A stretch of 64,000 nucleotides of DNA from Heterodontus francisci (lineage: Eukaryota). Below the pieces are notes generated by a model, which was not told the origin of the DNA, did not search any database, and saw only the letters and a program-made list of their open reading frames with translations. The stretch lies in NCBI RefSeq assembly GCF_036365525.1, contig NC_090411.1, forward strand, positions 32,194,432 to 32,258,431, given 5' to 3'. Position 1 is the first letter of the stretch. Every line of letters begins with the position of its first letter. Positions 784 through 55,501 of the stretch are shown piece by piece. The position numbers were made by a program, and so were the translations under genes.

Positions 784-942
784 CTGATTGGCTCTGAACC
801 TCACTCCCTCCCCAATACCCCATCCCCATTGTTAATTGGTGCCTGGATTCATGGGAGATTCCAGACTGGTTATCAGGGATGTCAATCATCATTGTTGATG
901 TCATTCCTTGTTTGAAATCAGGCTGTCCCAGTGGGATAAATA
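784..942 (+). promoter_or_regulatory. Ferritin copy 1 promoter module
   Basis: Inverted CCAAT CTGATTGGC 784-792, TTGTTAATTGG 829-839, kB-type GGGAGATTCC 853-862, CRE-like TGATGTCA 896-903, TATA variant GATAAATA 935-942. Same order upstream of copies 2-7. Confidence 0.65.
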
Positions 943-1022
943 CAGGAGACCATAGTAGAAAGGGTCATTGTTGGAAATTTCTAGGTGATAGTGAGCAGTA
1001 ATAGTATATAGCAATAGTGAAG

Positions 1023-49711: not shown

Positions 49712-52557
49712 GGGGAGGAGGTGGTGGTGGTGTAGTGGTATTATCACTGGACTAATAACCCAGAGACCCAGGGTATTGCTCTGGAGACATGGGTTCAAAT
49801 CCCACCACAGCAGAAGGTGGAATTTAAATTTAATTAATAAATATGGAATTAAAAGCTAGTCTAATGATGGCCATGAAACCATTGTCGATTGTTGTAAAAA
49901 CCCATCTGGGTCACTAATGTCCTTTTAGGGAAGGAAATCTGCTGTCCTTACCTGGTCTGGCCTACATGTGACTCCAGACCCACAGCAATGTGGTTGACTC
50001 TTACATGCCCTCTGAAATGGCCTAGCAAGCCACTCAGTTGTACCTAACCGCTATGAAGTCAATAAAAAGGAAAGAAACTGGACGGACCACCCGTCATCGA
50101 CCAAGGCACCGGAAACGACAACATCAAACCCAGCCCTGTCGACCCTGCGAAGTCCTCCTTACTAACATCTGGGGGCTTGTGCCAAAGTTGGGAGAGCTGT
50201 CCCACAGACTAGTCAAGCAACAGCCTGACAAAGTCATACTCATGGAATCATACCACATAGACAATGTCCCAGACACTGCAATCACTATCCCTGGGTATGT
50301 CCTGTCCCACTGGCAGGACATGTGCCGGGACAGTGGTATACAGTCGCGAGGGAGTTGCCCTGGGAGTCCTCAACATTGACTCTGGACCCCATGAAGTCTC
50401 ATGGTATCAGGTCAAACATGGGCAAGGTAACCTCCTACTGATTATGACCAACTGCTCTCCCTCAGCTGATGAGTCAGTACTCCTCCATGTTGAACACCAC
50501 TTGGAGGAAGCACTGAGGGTGGCAAGGGCACAAAATGTACTCTGGGTGGGGGATTTCAATGTCCATCACCAAGAGTGACTCGGTAGCACCACTACTGACT
50601 GAGCTGGCCAAGTACTAAAGGACATAGCTGCTAGACTGGGTCTGCGGCAGGTGGTGGGGGAACCAACACGAGGGAAAAACATACTTGACCTTGTTCTCAC
50701 CAATCTGCCTGCCACAGAAGCTTCTGTCCATGACAGTATTGGTAGGAGTGACCATCACACAGTCGTTGTGGAGACGAAGTCCCACCTTCACATTGAGGAT
50801 ACCATCCATCGTGTTGTGTGGCACTATCACCGTGCTAAATGGGATAGAATTCAAACATATCTAGCAATGCAAAACTGGGCATCCATGAGGCGCTGTGGGC
50901 CATCAGCAGCAGCAGAATTGTACTCCACCTCATGGCCCAGCATATCCCCCACTCTACCATTACCATCAAGCCAGGAGACCAACCCTGGTTCAATGAAGAG
51001 TGCAGGAGGGCATGCCAGGAGCAGCACCAGGCATACCTCAAAACGAGGTATCAACCTGGTGAAGCTACAACCCAGGACTACTTGCATGCCAAACTGCATA
51101 AGCAGCATGCAATAGACAGAGCTAAGCTATCCCATAACCAATGGATCAGATCTAAGCTCTGCAGTCCTGCCACATCCAGTTGTGAATAGTGGTGGACAAT
51201 TAAAGAACTAACTGGAGGAGGTGGCTCCACAAATATCCCCATCCTCAATGATGGGGGAGCCCAGCACATCAGTGCGAAAGATAAGGCTGAAGCATTTGCA
51301 ACAATCTTCAGCCAGAAGTGCCGAGTTGATGATCCATCTCGGCCCCCTCCTGAAGTCCCCAGCATTACAGATTGCAGATTTCAGCCAATTCGATTCATTC
51401 CCCATGATATCAAGAAATGACTGAAGGCACTGGCTACTACATTTGCGTCACATAAGTGCCAGGCAATGACCATTTCCAACAAGAGAGAATCTAACCATCT
51501 CCCCTTGACATTCAATGGCATTACCATCGCTGAATCCCCCACTATCAACATCCTCGGGGCTACCATTGACTAGAAACTGAACTGGAGTAGCTATATAAAT
51601 AACGTGGCTACAAGAGCAGGTCAGAGGCTAGGAATCCTGTGGTGAGTAACTCACCTCCTGACTCCCCAAAGCCTGTCCACCATCTACAAGGCACAAGTCA
51701 GGAATACTCTCCACTTGCCTGGATGGGTGCAGCTCCAACAACACTCTCAAGAAGCTCAATACCATCCATAACAAAGCAGCCTGCTTGATTGGCACACCAT
51801 CCACAAACATTCACTCCCTCCACCACCAACGCACAGTGGCAGCAGTGTGTACCATCTACAAGATGCACTGCAGCAATGCACCAAGGCTCCTTAGACAGCA
51901 ACTTCCAAACCCAGGGCGGCACAGTGGCGCAGTGGTTAGCACCGCAGCCTCACAGCTCCAGCGACCTGGGTTCAATTCTGGGTACTGCCTGTGTGGAGTT
52001 TGCAAGTTCTCCCTGTGTCTGCGTGGGTTTCCTCCGGGTGCTCCGGTTTCCTCCCACATGCCAAAAGACTTGCTGGTTGATAGGTTAATTGGCCATTATA
52101 AATTGCCCCTAGTATAGGTCGATGGTAGGGAAATATAGGGACAGGTGGGGATGTGGTAGGAATATGGAATTAGTGTAGGATTAGTATAAATGGGTGGTTG
52201 ATGGTCGGCAGAGACTCGGTGGGCCGAAGGGCCTGTTTCAGTGCTGTATCTCTAAACCATGACCTCTACCACCTCGAAGGACAAGAGCAGCAGATGCATG
52301 GGAACACCACCACCTGCAAGTTCCCATCCAAGTCACACGTCATCCTGACTTGGAACTATATCGCCGTTCCTTCACTGTCGCTGGGTCGTAATCCTGGAAC
52401 TCCCTTCCTAACAGCACTGTGGGTGTACTTACCTCACATGGACTGCAACAGTTCAAGAAGGCAGCTCACCACCACTTTCTCGAAGGCAATTAGAGATGGG
52501 CAATAAATGCTGGCCTGACCAGTGACGCCGACATCCCATGAATGAATTAAAAAAAAA
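49712..52557 (+). mobile_element. CR1/Jockey-group LINE with a tRNA-like 5' head, RT core deleted, in intron 1 of pseudogene 8
   Basis: A box gtggtgtagtgg ~49727 and B box gggttcaaatcc 49791-49802; APE motifs TNIWGL..VILMES, VGDFNVHH, PTRGKNILDLVLT, SDH; jump at ~51435 past the RT core; A-rich 3' end. Confidence 0.85.
51914..52257 (+). mobile_element. tRNA-derived SINE (HE1-like) nested in the LINE
   Basis: Full length with A/B boxes; the host sequence rejoins at aaacc(c)a. Confidence 0.88.
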
Positions 52558-55501
52558 CATCTAGAATCAGTAGAAGTAGTTTCATTTTCCTCCTAAGAGA
52601 AAAGTCTGGGCTGGAGCCCAATCTTTCAGCTGCTGGAGCCTCCAATTAATCAAATTAGATGTGCTCTTTCTAATGTGGAGAGAGACTGTTCAACATTGTA
52701 ACCAACCATTTAGTATTATAAACTTTTATATTGTTCAAATAACCAGAATTGACTGTTCAAAACAGACTGGTGATGGCACTGCACAAATCTTGATCTGCTA
52801 GGAGATCATGGAATTGCATGTAGTTAAAATTTTAGCCTGGCATAACTTCTATTCTCTTTGCAGTCTTGTTACTTTGACTGGGATGATGTTGCCCTGCGTC
52901 ACTTTGCTGAGTTCTTCAAGGAGCAGTCACATGAGGAACGGGAGCAGTCTGAGAAACTGATGAAATCCCAGAATAAACGTGGAGGCTGAATCTTGGAGGA
53001 CATCAAGGTATCCTCTTCAAGCTTCTTTGACTTGTGCACTTTTTTTGCCCCCCCCCCCTCCAAGAAAAAGAGCTTAAATTTCAAATTTAAGAAAAACTTG
53101 ATTTTAAAATGAACTGTCCATTCAATTTGCTTTGAAGGCTCATCTTTAATGAGATTCAGTCTTTGATTCACTTGGAGATGGTGGGAGGTGGTATTCCATT
53201 AAAGGCAATGAATCATGGCATATTGCCAATATGGGGTAAAATGTGGAATAACCCCCTCCCACCATGTGATTATATTGCTTTGGCCAACTACCCTCAAGGT
53301 AGTTGCAGCCTTCAATTTCCTTCTATTGAAGTTACTTTTTTTCCCTCAAAAGTAACTTTTTTTTCTCTTTCCAGAAGCCAGAGCAGGATGAGTGGAGCAA
53401 TGGTCTGGAGGCAATGCAGAGAGCTCTGCAAATGGAGAAGGATGTGAACCAGAGTCTGCTGGATCTGCACAAACTGTCCACTGGCAACACTGACCCTCAT
53501 GTAAGTTTTTGCAGCTTTAATGCGCTTGAGATTTCCAGGTCAGCTGAGGCAGTTGCTGGAAGTTGTATCTGTCCTTGTAGCCCTATTCAAAATGCCCCCA
53601 AAACACTAGCTTTGTGTCTTGTAATTTATTCCCTGAGAACTGGTTTCTTTGAAAAGCTGGTATAGTAGCTGGGCAATTGAATATAGATGTCCAAAAGTAT
53701 AACTACTTAGGTGTTGGTAAATTTCAGGGTCTGTCTTCTGTTCAATAACATTTGGATAAATTATATTCCAAAATCTTGATGTCCCTTCCAATTTCATTTT
53801 ATTGGATAAGATACACATGTAGCAGGGAGGAACCAATTCTTTTCCCCCCTGCTGGAGATGTTTAGCACTCAGTTGCAAGTTCAAAAGACTTCCTTCCCAG
53901 GCTTGTGAATTTCTTTCTTTCTCTAGTTGTGACTTCCTGGAGTCTCACTACTTGGATGAGCAAGTGAAGATGATCAAGAAGCTTGGAGATCACATCACCA
54001 ACCTGAAGAGACTGGGACCCCCTGAGAATGGCATGGGAGAGTACCTGTTTGACAAGCACATGCTGGGGGTGAGTGACTGAACTGACTGCAAGGATCAAGC
54101 TTGTGTTTTATTTAATGGTGTGTAAACGATCCCTCTGTTCTGTAGGGAATGATGGCTTCTGACTTTATACCAAGAATTGAGACCTGATCTCTTGTTGGAA
54201 TGTTAACTGTAAATAAACGACACAATATTGGACTGCTTTGTCTCCTTGTTAATCTGAAAATAAGGAACTATTCAAATTTACACTGGTTTATGTCTGGAAG
54301 TATCACACTGGGCTCTGTAACAGCTTTACCATGGGGAGATTTTATTGCCTTGGATGTTTAAGATCTCATTACAATTCTTTGACTGCACAACAATGACTTG
54401 CATTTATATAGTGCCTTTTAACATATTAAAACATTCCAAGATGCTTCACAAGTGTTAAACAAAGTGTGACACTGAGCTACATAAGGAGGGAAGACAGGTG
54501 CTCAAAGGTTTCCTCAAGAAAGTCGATTTTAAGGAATGTTTGAGACACAGTTGGGGAGAGGACTCTAGAGGTTGGGGCCTAGGTAGCTGAGTATGAGTTG
54601 TTCCTACTGCTGCTGAATATTTTCTTGCCTTGTTAGTTAGCACAAAGCCCAAAACTAGTAATCTAGTCACCAAAGACCCATCATTCACTCAACCACAGTG
54701 ATTTCTGAAATTGCAATGAGTGACATGTCCAGTGCCAGATAAACAATTTAAATGATCTAGCCTTGCATTATCCATTGAGATAAGTTCACTTGTGTACAAG
54801 TGACCACAGTGCCTGGACAACACTTGCACTCGTGGAATTACTCAGGGAAACAAGTGACACTATACGCTGGTGCTAGTACTAATGATTCTTCATGGAGCCA
54901 CCAATAATACATGTCAACCCTTGGTCAGAGGATGAGATAAGAACTGATATTCTGAGCTATCTCAACACCAGATTCTTTGCTAGATTGAGCAATCTGTTCA
55001 AACTTGTTTGCACTTGGAACCATTCCTTCACATACCACGTATTCTGTTGCATAAATTGGTGTTACAATTAGTCCTGCATCATCAGTCTGCCATATCCTGT
55101 CTAATTATTCTAGCTTAGATCAAAAATGGTTACACCCTGCAATACCCAATCTACAAACTGTAAATTCCATTCACCAAAAGGCTATCTATCACAACTGGAG
55201 GGAGATTGATTTGACAAGCAGCTGGCAACTATATGTACCTTGGGAGGGAGAATGTTCACCTGTGTGGGATGGAATATCAGGAGGTTTCGTAAGGAATTTA
55301 CAAAATCTGTGTAGGCATGTGTGTTAATTAATAAACTGCCCGTCTCTTTCTCTGTTACCTCTATTTTTCTGACTGGTATTTCCCTTGACTCTATTTCTAT
55401 ATCTTTTTAAATCTCAGTTCACTTCTTTTTCTGATGGATGTTTTGTTTTGCGCCTGTCACCTTGTTATTCCCCCCATCTCTGTATCCAGCTGAGGTGAAC
55501 T

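What the first reader, a model, noticed from the sequence alone, without database searches (positions are those of the whole stretch)
784..54217. Tandem array of IRE-less ferritin genes with a conserved kB-type promoter: a candidate iron-independent, transcription-driven ferritin system
Seen: six intact and two dead H/M ferritins lie head-to-tail. In the intact copies the TATA box is only about 65-90 nt before the ATG, and that stretch has no CAGTG IRE loop. Established: canonical vertebrate cytosolic ferritin mRNAs carry a 5' IRE bound by IRP1/2, so synthesis follows iron. Seen: a kB-type decamer is kept at a fixed position (853, 8702, 14512, 33331, 38725; imperfect at 23258) and decays in the two pseudogenes. 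Inference: an amplified ferritin set uncoupled from IRP control and switched on transcriptionally, e.g. for inflammatory iron withholding or bulk iron loading of a tissue or egg. The genes themselves may already be auto-annotated; the regulatory logic is the notable part.
Basis: partly seen in the sequence, partly recalled or inferred. Interest (0 to 1): 0.8.

Follow-up and report, generated by a model that had tools for sequence, protein, structure and literature searches.

The report
Shark ferritin array without iron switch
This is the end of a run of about 90 ferritin genes in a shark that have lost the usual iron-sensing RNA switch and most likely mass-produce ferritin for eggs; the gene expansion itself is already published, and the proposed inflammation switch does not hold up.

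Summary
The window holds six intact and two broken ferritin genes, TATA 65-88 nt before ATG, no IRE. But it is only the last tenth of a ~600-kb array: 91 segments, 68 intact, under purifying selection (pN/pS 0.19), 64 of 68 keeping all ferroxidase ligands. Tool labels say horn shark. IRE loss is real: a neighbouring single-copy ferritin and FTH1 carry Rfam IREs, and retrocopies of array mRNAs read through the suspected splice acceptor. The kB idea fails: 17 of 68 intact promoters match, and the GGGRN half changes as fast as intron DNA, while TALE-, CCAAT- and TATA-like blocks are conserved. Shark ferritin arrays are published, with ovary-specific expression in a preprint; a published table shows Greenland shark copies nearly silent in blood and fin. 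Best reading: a germline/ovary dosage array uncoupled from IRP control. I found the IRE loss and promoter anatomy unreported. Aside: a neighbouring ferritin carries a conserved targeting-like N-extension.

The parts
784..942 (+). Core promoter of copy 1: CTGATTGG (inverted CCAAT, 784), TTAATTGG (832), decamer (853), TGTCAATCA (880-888, reverse of a TALE DECA-like site), TGTTTGAA (909), CAGGCTG (919), TATA-like GATAAATA (935)
   Evidence: conservation across 68 intact copies
853..862 (+). kB-like decamer; equivalents at 8702, 14512, 33331, 38725, non-matching at 23258. Only its 3' half (ATTCC, part of the block ATTCCTGACTGGCT) is constrained
   Evidence: 17 of 68 intact copies match; 6.8 vs 1.6 parsimony steps per site for 5' vs 3' half
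943..1022 (+). Short unstructured IRE-less leader of copy 1, unspliced
   Evidence: retrocopies L115, L118/L119 colinear for about 45-53 nt
1023..3181 (+). Copy 1, intact, 176 aa (exons 1023-1124, 2012-2158, 2358-2483, 3026-3181)
8682..10981 (+). Copy 2 with promoter (TATA 8785, ATG 8850), intact, 175 aa
14450..16683 (+). Copy 3 with promoter (TATA 14591, ATG 14669), intact, 176 aa
23238..29263 (+). Copy 4 with promoter (TATA 23341, ATG 23422), intact, 176 aa; intron 1 enlarged to 4.7 kb; lacks a consensus kB decamer
33311..36585 (+). Copy 5 with promoter (TATA 33414, ATG 33482), intact, 173 aa
38725..41732 (+). Copy 6 with promoter (TATA 38809, ATG 38884), intact, 173 aa
45899..47872 (+). Copy 7, pseudogene: exon 3 absent, premature stop in exon 4; TATA still present at 46002
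49254..54217 (+). Copy 8, pseudogene: frameshift in exon 1, stop in exon 2, promoter eroded; last member of the array
60817..62897 (-). Exons 2-4 of divergent ferritin 'gene A' (exon 1 lies 1.2 kb beyond the window); intact 175-aa ORF, 72% identical to array proteins, no IRE found, related core promoter, two ferroxidase ligands replaced

Best explanation
A gene-dosage array for making ferritin in bulk in the ovary, most likely in growing oocytes. SHOWN: about 90 tandem copies (68 intact) of one chondrichthyan ferritin lineage sit beside the single-copy IRE-bearing M-type gene, away from FTH1; they keep the ferroxidase ligands, have short unspliced leaders without IRE, share a dedicated ~110-nt TATA promoter, and have been transcribed, spliced and polyadenylated in cells that pass DNA to offspring. 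FROM ESTABLISHED KNOWLEDGE: without a 5' IRE, IRP1/2 cannot block translation, so protein output follows mRNA. FROM OTHER SHARKS' DATA: the cluster is ovary-specific and near-silent in fin and blood. INFERRED: TALE (Pbx/Prep), NF-Y and homeodomain factors drive the promoter during oogenesis; the cytosolic 24-mers (no signal peptide) store iron for long yolk-fed development and keep free iron away from lipid-rich ooplasm; IRE loss lets shells be made ahead of iron arrival; copy number is selected for output and kept by birth-and-death plus exon homogenisation.
For: Array size and integrity. pN/pS 0.19 over 2278 pairs; 64 of 68 keep 7 of 7 ligands. CAGWG in 1 of 84 leaders, without IRE stem; 4 Rfam IRE matches genome-wide, none in the array. 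6 of 6 dispersed hits are intronless retrocopies, 5 events; the 2 informative events are colinear with the genomic leader, whereas retrocopies of IRE genes keep the IRE. Core promoter identity 0.855 vs 0.61 intron and 0.67 leader; motif blocks 1.0-2.4 steps per site vs 5.4-6.0; module confined to the array, 39 of 39 exact matches. Ovary-specific expression of the largest shark cluster (10.1101/2024.09.09.611499, passage). In PMC13214024 Dataset S4, of 38 family members I could match, 33 have zero reads in fin and 35 in blood. Ferritin in amphibian, trout, zebrafish, snail and schistosome eggs (PMC1488847 passage). DECA TGATTGACAG plus CCAAT bound by maternal TALE/NF-Y in zebrafish (PMC6023610 passages); TGTCAATCA exact in 54 of 68.
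Against: No expression data from this species were obtained. The ovary statement is one sentence in a preprint on another species, and shark ovaries are enclosed in lymphomyeloid epigonal tissue (PMC5568229 passage), so 'ovary' need not mean oocyte. Retrocopies show germline or early-embryo transcription of either sex, not its level; retrocopies of the housekeeping ferritins exist too. No CPE in 0 of 68 3' UTRs, PBE in only 18 of 68, so no sign of classical maternal-mRNA control. Factor assignments are motif resemblances picked after seeing the alignment. The genome-wide IRE search scored only 82 candidates, so its count is a lower bound. Orthology to the Greenland shark cluster is inferred, not aligned.
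Confidence: 0.62

Rival explanations
1. One reading: NF-kB-inducible ferritin battery for inflammatory iron withholding.
For: 5 of 6 intact window copies carry a consensus decamer at a fixed place; the commonest single variant in the array is the consensus form (13 of 68); IRE loss would suit iron-independent induction.
Against: 51 of 68 intact copies have no loose kB match anywhere in 400 nt upstream. Positions 2-4 are 0.50, 0.53, 0.50 identical; the decamer ranks 90 of 103 core 10-mers; 5' half 6.8 steps per site vs intron 5.97, and the state flips 7 times on the tree. Intact (25%) vs broken (12.5%) differ little. Relatives near-silent in unstimulated blood.
Confidence: 0.06
2. Gonad-associated but somatic: expressed in follicle cells or the epigonal lymphomyeloid organ (or testis), supplying or sequestering iron around germ cells.
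For: Shark ovary samples include epigonal tissue; no maternal-mRNA elements in the 3' UTRs.
Against: Five heritable retrocopy events need germline or early-embryo transcripts; circulating blood cells of a related shark barely express the family.
Confidence: 0.15
3. Body-wide ferroptosis buffering linked to shark longevity or PUFA content (hypothesis of PMC13214024).
For: Ferroxidase-competent proteins; the paper reports some copies active in fin and blood.
Against: That paper's own table gives 0-2 reads for 37 of the 38 matched members in blood and all 38 in fin. This genome has 68 intact copies against the 59 called the highest count there (counting methods differ, and horn shark was not among its 13 species); horn sharks are not known as long-lived (recalled).
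Confidence: 0.07
4. Mostly neutral birth-and-death: a few functional IRE-less genes, the rest carried by unequal crossing-over and conversion.
For: 23 of 91 segments broken or partial; recent ~110-kb inverted duplication at 93-98.5% identity; four-fold sites change three times more slowly than introns (2.0 vs 5.97 steps), as expected from conversion, which can mimic selection.
Against: pN/pS 0.19 and promoter motifs constrained relative to flanks in diverged copies; large expansions in every shark order sampled.
Confidence: 0.1

Closest known systems
Shark 'FTH1b' tandem clusters (PMC13214024; 10.1101/2024.09.09.611499)
   Same: Tandem ferritin array on one small chromosome, a large cluster plus a small four-gene group (55+4 there; 91 segments plus genes A-D here), some copies reduced to exons 3-4; close proteins (82-92% over 96 aa) in ten or more shark species.
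   Different: Neither text contains IRE, UTR or promoter; this species was not analysed; the PNAS paper reads the expansion as ferroptosis/longevity biology.
Ferritin M (middle) subunit of amphibians and fish, e.g. bullfrog 1MFR
   Same: Best solved-structure matches (E 1e-46, colinear from residue 1); ferroxidase ligands kept; RUVBL2-linked locus.
   Different: Separate chondrichthyan clade (95/89 with a chimaera protein); no IRE; Met at the position of frog D140 / human H A144 (numbering recalled); dozens of copies. The IRE-bearing M-like gene is the separate neighbour C.
FTH1 (H chain) with 5' IRE
   Same: Fold, four-exon layout, ferroxidase centre.
   Different: The genome's FTH1 is single-copy on C14, IRE-bearing, next to a bestrophin gene and in another clade.
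Yolk ferritins of snails and schistosomes; amphibian oocyte ferritin
   Same: Egg-directed ferritin; schistosome ferritin mRNAs lack IREs (reference titles and passage in PMC1488847).
   Different: No signal peptide here, so made in place rather than secreted and imported (snail route recalled); output raised by gene number.
Mammalian FTHL17 cluster and teleost fthl genes (recalled, not tested)
   Same: Tandem, germline-biased ferritin paralogues; FTHL17 lacks an IRE.
   Different: FTHL17 copies are intronless H-derived genes without ferroxidase activity; this array keeps introns and ligands.

Membership tests
Eukaryotic 24-mer ferritin | Ferritin domain, ~175 aa, vertebrate four-exon gene | tested here: met
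   PF00210 on exon 2; PDB ferritins E<=1e-44; gene models
H/M-type (ferroxidase) subunit | E27, Y34, E61, E62, H65, E107, Q141 (human H numbering, recalled) | tested here: met
   All seven in 64 of 68 intact copies
H/M-type (ferroxidase) subunit | Measured ferroxidase activity and cage assembly | not testable with these tools
   Needs recombinant protein
IRP-regulated cytosolic ferritin | 5' UTR IRE (C bulge, 5-bp stem, CAGWGH loop) | tested here: not met
   positive controls found at genes C and FTH1
FTH1 orthologue | Groups with fth1a/H chains; adjacent to BEST1 (linkage recalled) | tested here: not met
   The C14 gene fills both roles; the array does neither
Ferritin M/L locus | Linked to RUVBL2/GYS1/BAX (linkage recalled) and to an IRE-bearing M-like gene | tested here: inconclusive
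   RUVBL2 1.1 Mb away on the same contig, IRE gene C 30 kb away; GYS1 search unanswered, BAX search uninformative; tree does not resolve array versus M
Shark FTH1b array | Tandem cluster of near-identical ferritins of the shark-wide clade | tested here: met
   Greenland shark sequences themselves not compared
Shark FTH1b array | Ovary-specific expression | not testable with these tools
   No RNA data for this species obtained; retrocopies give indirect germline evidence
NF-kB target gene set | kB site under constraint | tested here: not met
NF-kB target gene set | Induction by LPS/TNF and Rel binding | not testable with these tools
   Bench test
Secreted yolk ferritin (snail type) | N-terminal signal peptide | tested here: not met
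   Protein aligns from residue 1 with cytosolic frog M

The most novel reading that the evidence does not exclude
Cartilaginous fishes evolved a vertebrate counterpart of yolk ferritin by gene dosage: an old IRE-free lineage (shared with chimaera) under its own TALE/NF-Y-type promoter, amplified to 60-100 copies in sharks to load giant oocytes. Copy number would then track egg size and yolk dependence, not lifespan, overturning the ferroptosis-longevity reading. The same locus also holds an independently evolved, intron-bearing mitochondrial (or secreted) ferritin.
Probability: 0.4. Interest if true: 0.65.

Novelty: new variant of a known kind. Interest (0 to 1): 0.42.

Why it matters
The IRE is treated as near-universal for vertebrate cytosolic ferritins; here 68 intact genes lack it while their single-copy neighbours keep it, giving a natural in-genome contrast. 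It offers a concrete, testable alternative (egg provisioning) to the published link between shark ferritin expansion and extreme longevity, and names the promoter blocks to mutate. The expansion itself and its ovary bias are already reported, which caps the surprise.

Tried and rejected
NF-kB element: rejected. Upstream IRE exon: rejected on two retrocopy events; L117 keeps only ~10 nt of leader and L114/L116 are truncated inside exon 1, so 3 of 6 retrocopies say nothing. Eroded IRE in the array or gene A leader: 284 and 285 of 1000 shuffles score as well. ARE, MRE, HRE, E-box: 4, 0, 2, 4 of 68 promoters. CPE 0 of 68. Assembly duplication: mirrored arms are 93-98.5% identical, all 68 CDSs differ, no N. 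Sequencing runs: no RNA holder listed, only small shares from other organisms; no read evidence was obtained. Flank genes: 102 of 1318 stop-to-stop ORFs scanned, only LINE and ferritin domains of note. Bcl-2 search was swamped by dispersed partial hits. Metagenome scan for a promoter motif: 4 GC-rich loci, none with ferritin. ESM Atlas on the gene B orthologue N-terminus: scores under 0.9, lead only. Earlier scan notes: none. Literature searches for IRE loss in shark ferritins or a shark mitochondrial ferritin found no such paper (listings only); the library lacks most subscription papers.
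Full report
WHAT IS THERE. The window holds eight ferritin copies head to tail on the + strand: six intact four-exon ORFs of 173-176 aa with GT/AG junctions and two broken ones. TATA-like boxes lie 65-88 nt before the ATG. 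The window is G000:C41:32194432-32258431 of a 6.0-Gb genome; database labels on a 100% protein match name the horn shark, Heterodontus francisci. Fetching 764 kb around it shows that the window is the right end of an array from about 31.645 to 32.249 Mb: 91 segments, 83 with four exons, 68 intact by automatic criteria (20 on the minus arm, 48 on the plus arm). No further ferritin was found in 70 kb to the left. Part of the minus arm mirrors the plus arm at 93-98.5% identity, a real inverted duplication. The NCBI-derived models here are partly fused and wrong (P0001 strings several copies together).

THE PROTEINS. Mean identity among intact copies is 96%, with 67 distinct proteins; pN/pS is 0.19 over 2278 pairs, 0.30 counted on distinct variants. 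All seven ferroxidase ligands (human H numbering, recalled) are kept in 64 of 68. The best solved relatives are frog M chains, colinear from residue 1, so there is no signal peptide (query: 96 aa of retrocopy L117). The copies form a chondrichthyan clade with sharks of many orders, a sawfish and one chimaera protein (95/89), apart from FTH1; its relation to M is unresolved (29 selected rows in 88, outgroups and gene D left out). FTH1 proper is a single IRE-bearing gene on C14 beside a bestrophin; RUVBL2 lies 1.1 Mb from the array, which fits the FTL/M locus (linkage recalled). Four-fold sites change about three times more slowly than intron 1 (2.0 vs 5.97 parsimony steps), pointing to exon-level conversion or synonymous constraint.

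THE IRE. Rfam finds no IRE in the window at E<=10. Genome-wide it finds four (82 candidates scored, a lower bound): gene C, 30 kb right of the array; FTH1; and one processed pseudogene of each. Among 84 array leaders one has CAGWG, without stem. An exact exon-2 21-mer hits 86 places, 80 in the array and 6 elsewhere. All six are intronless retrocopies from five events; three show a poly(A) tail after AATAAA. With TATA at about -88 in the best-matching copies, a start near -58 is expected (established spacing), so these leaders are nearly full length and hold no foreign exon. Retrocopies are often 5'-truncated, so this is a lower bound; the controls show that IREs can be captured. No eroded IRE was detectable.

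THE PROMOTER. The ~110-nt core is 0.855 identical between intact copies, against 0.61 for intron 1 and 0.67 for the leader. The kB decamer is not what is conserved: 17 of 68 intact and 2 of 16 broken copies match; positions 2-4 are about 50% identical; it ranks 90 of 103 core 10-mers. On a tree built without it, its 5' half shows 6.8 steps per site (intron 5.97, leader 5.38), its 3' half 1.6, and presence flips 7 times. The 3' half belongs to a longer block, ATTCCTGACTGGCT. Constrained blocks (1.0-2.4 steps) are CTGATT, TTAATTGG, TTCCTGACTGG, TGTCAATCA, TGATGTCA, TGTTTGAA, CAGGCTG and TATAAATA. TGTCAATCA is the reverse of 9 of 10 bases of the DECA site that maternal Pbx/Prep occupy next to NF-Y CCAAT boxes in zebrafish (PMC6023610, passages); 60 of 68 promoters have a CCAAT box. 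TAATTG resembles the NOBOX site (recalled; 41 of 68). These assignments are post hoc leads. The three-block module occurs only in the array (39 of 39). Divergent gene A shares a weaker version (0 of 300 shuffles reach its score; gene C does not).

WHAT IS KNOWN. A preprint (10.1101/2024.09.09.611499; passages; supplements not seen) reports 155 FTL and 179 FTH1 hits, clusters shared by Greenland and white shark, and ovary-specific expression of the largest. PMC13214024 (passages, section 6, parts of supplements; figures not seen) reports 59 'FTH1b' copies (55+4), calls this the highest among 13 chondrichthyans and links it to ferroptosis and longevity. Neither main text contains IRE, UTR, promoter or Heterodontus. 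From its Dataset S2, 44 of the 59 identifiers were visible and 38 were found in the Dataset S4 rows I read: 33 have zero reads in fin (maximum 2) and 35 in blood (one has 46 reads), while the adjacent identifier gs_018934, unnamed in the table, reaches 1,035 and 12,102 TPM (my count; shallow libraries, unstimulated animal). The earlier preprint of that paper has no ferritin mention. Egg ferritin is widespread (PMC1488847 passages); IRE/IRP basics and the intronless mammalian mitochondrial ferritin are from PMC11719527 (passages). My searches for IRE loss in shark ferritins found nothing (listings).

HOW IT MOST LIKELY WORKS. A dedicated TATA promoter is switched on in the ovary, probably in oocytes; dozens of templates give abundant mRNA; short unstructured leaders without IRE are translated whatever the cell's iron status; ferroxidase-competent cytosolic cages store iron for the embryo and shield lipid-rich ooplasm. 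Gene structure, IRE loss, promoter constraint and past germline transcription are shown; ovary bias comes from another shark; cell type, factors and physiological role are inferred (0.62). Rivals: follicle/epigonal/testis expression (0.15; ovary samples include epigonal tissue), largely neutral turnover (0.10), body-wide ferroptosis buffering (0.07), NF-kB battery (0.06). Against my reading: no RNA evidence from this species, and no CPE in any of 68 3' UTRs.

NEIGHBOURS. Right of the array lie four single genes: A (IRE-less, E61 and H65 equivalents lost), B, C (IRE, M-like) and D (56% identical, ligands lost, L-like, no IRE found). Gene B has introns, a CpG-rich upstream region, intact ligands by alignment and a 60-residue extension with 8 basic and no acidic residues; orthologues with 47-56-residue extensions of the same make-up occur in Heptranchias and two Scyliorhinus species (5 hits among 249 candidates, one being this genome's). 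It looks like a mitochondrial presequence, though its hydrophobic start could be a signal peptide; no predictor was run.

VERDICT. Real feature; expansion known; IRE-free leaders and promoter anatomy apparently unreported; kB switch not supported. New variant of a known kind, interest 0.42.

Noticed in passing
G000:C41:32264920-32275080 (L031:6920-7198 is exon 1): Gene B: intron-bearing ferritin with a 60-aa basic, acid-free N-extension conserved in three other sharks; candidate mitochondrial (or secreted) ferritin arising independently of the intronless mammalian FTMT.
   Followed up: partly
window 60817-62897 (-), exon 1 at G000:C41:32259557-32259658: Gene A: intact divergent ferritin with array-like promoter, no IRE, and Lys/Gln in place of two ferroxidase ligands; possible partner subunit of the array proteins.
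   Followed up: partly
G000:C41:32310856-32317320 (L108): Gene D: L-like ferritin without ferroxidase ligands and with no IRE found.
   Followed up: partly
L098 about 1400-1430 (C14, FTH1 promoter): It is the IRE-bearing FTH1, not the array, that has a loose kB-type match with a half-site beside it in a CpG-rich promoter (read by eye; chance not tested).
   Followed up: no
G000:C41:31.69-31.80 Mb vs 31.85-31.96 Mb: About 110-kb inverted segmental duplication (93-98.5%); array switches strand head-to-head near 31.817 Mb.
   Followed up: partly
array exons versus introns: Four-fold sites 0.915 identical versus 0.61 for intron 1; suggests exon-restricted gene conversion.
   Followed up: partly
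array exon 4, residue 141: Met in 66 of 68 copies (Ile in 2) at the site-B position held by Asp in frog M and Ala in human H (numbering recalled); may alter iron turnover.
   Followed up: no
window 17514-21134, 57211-57819: LINE reverse-transcriptase remnants between copies; the extra kB-like match at 18649 lies in one.
   Followed up: no
L117 just upstream of 3152; L118/L119: One retrocopy is preceded by five ~30-nt tandem repeats; two others are a duplicated pair 100 kb apart on C48.
   Followed up: no
genome-wide: More than 100 dispersed partial Bcl-2-family matches (model positions ~1-63) on most contigs, suggesting a repeat that carries a Bcl-2-like fragment or a spurious repeat match.
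   Followed up: no
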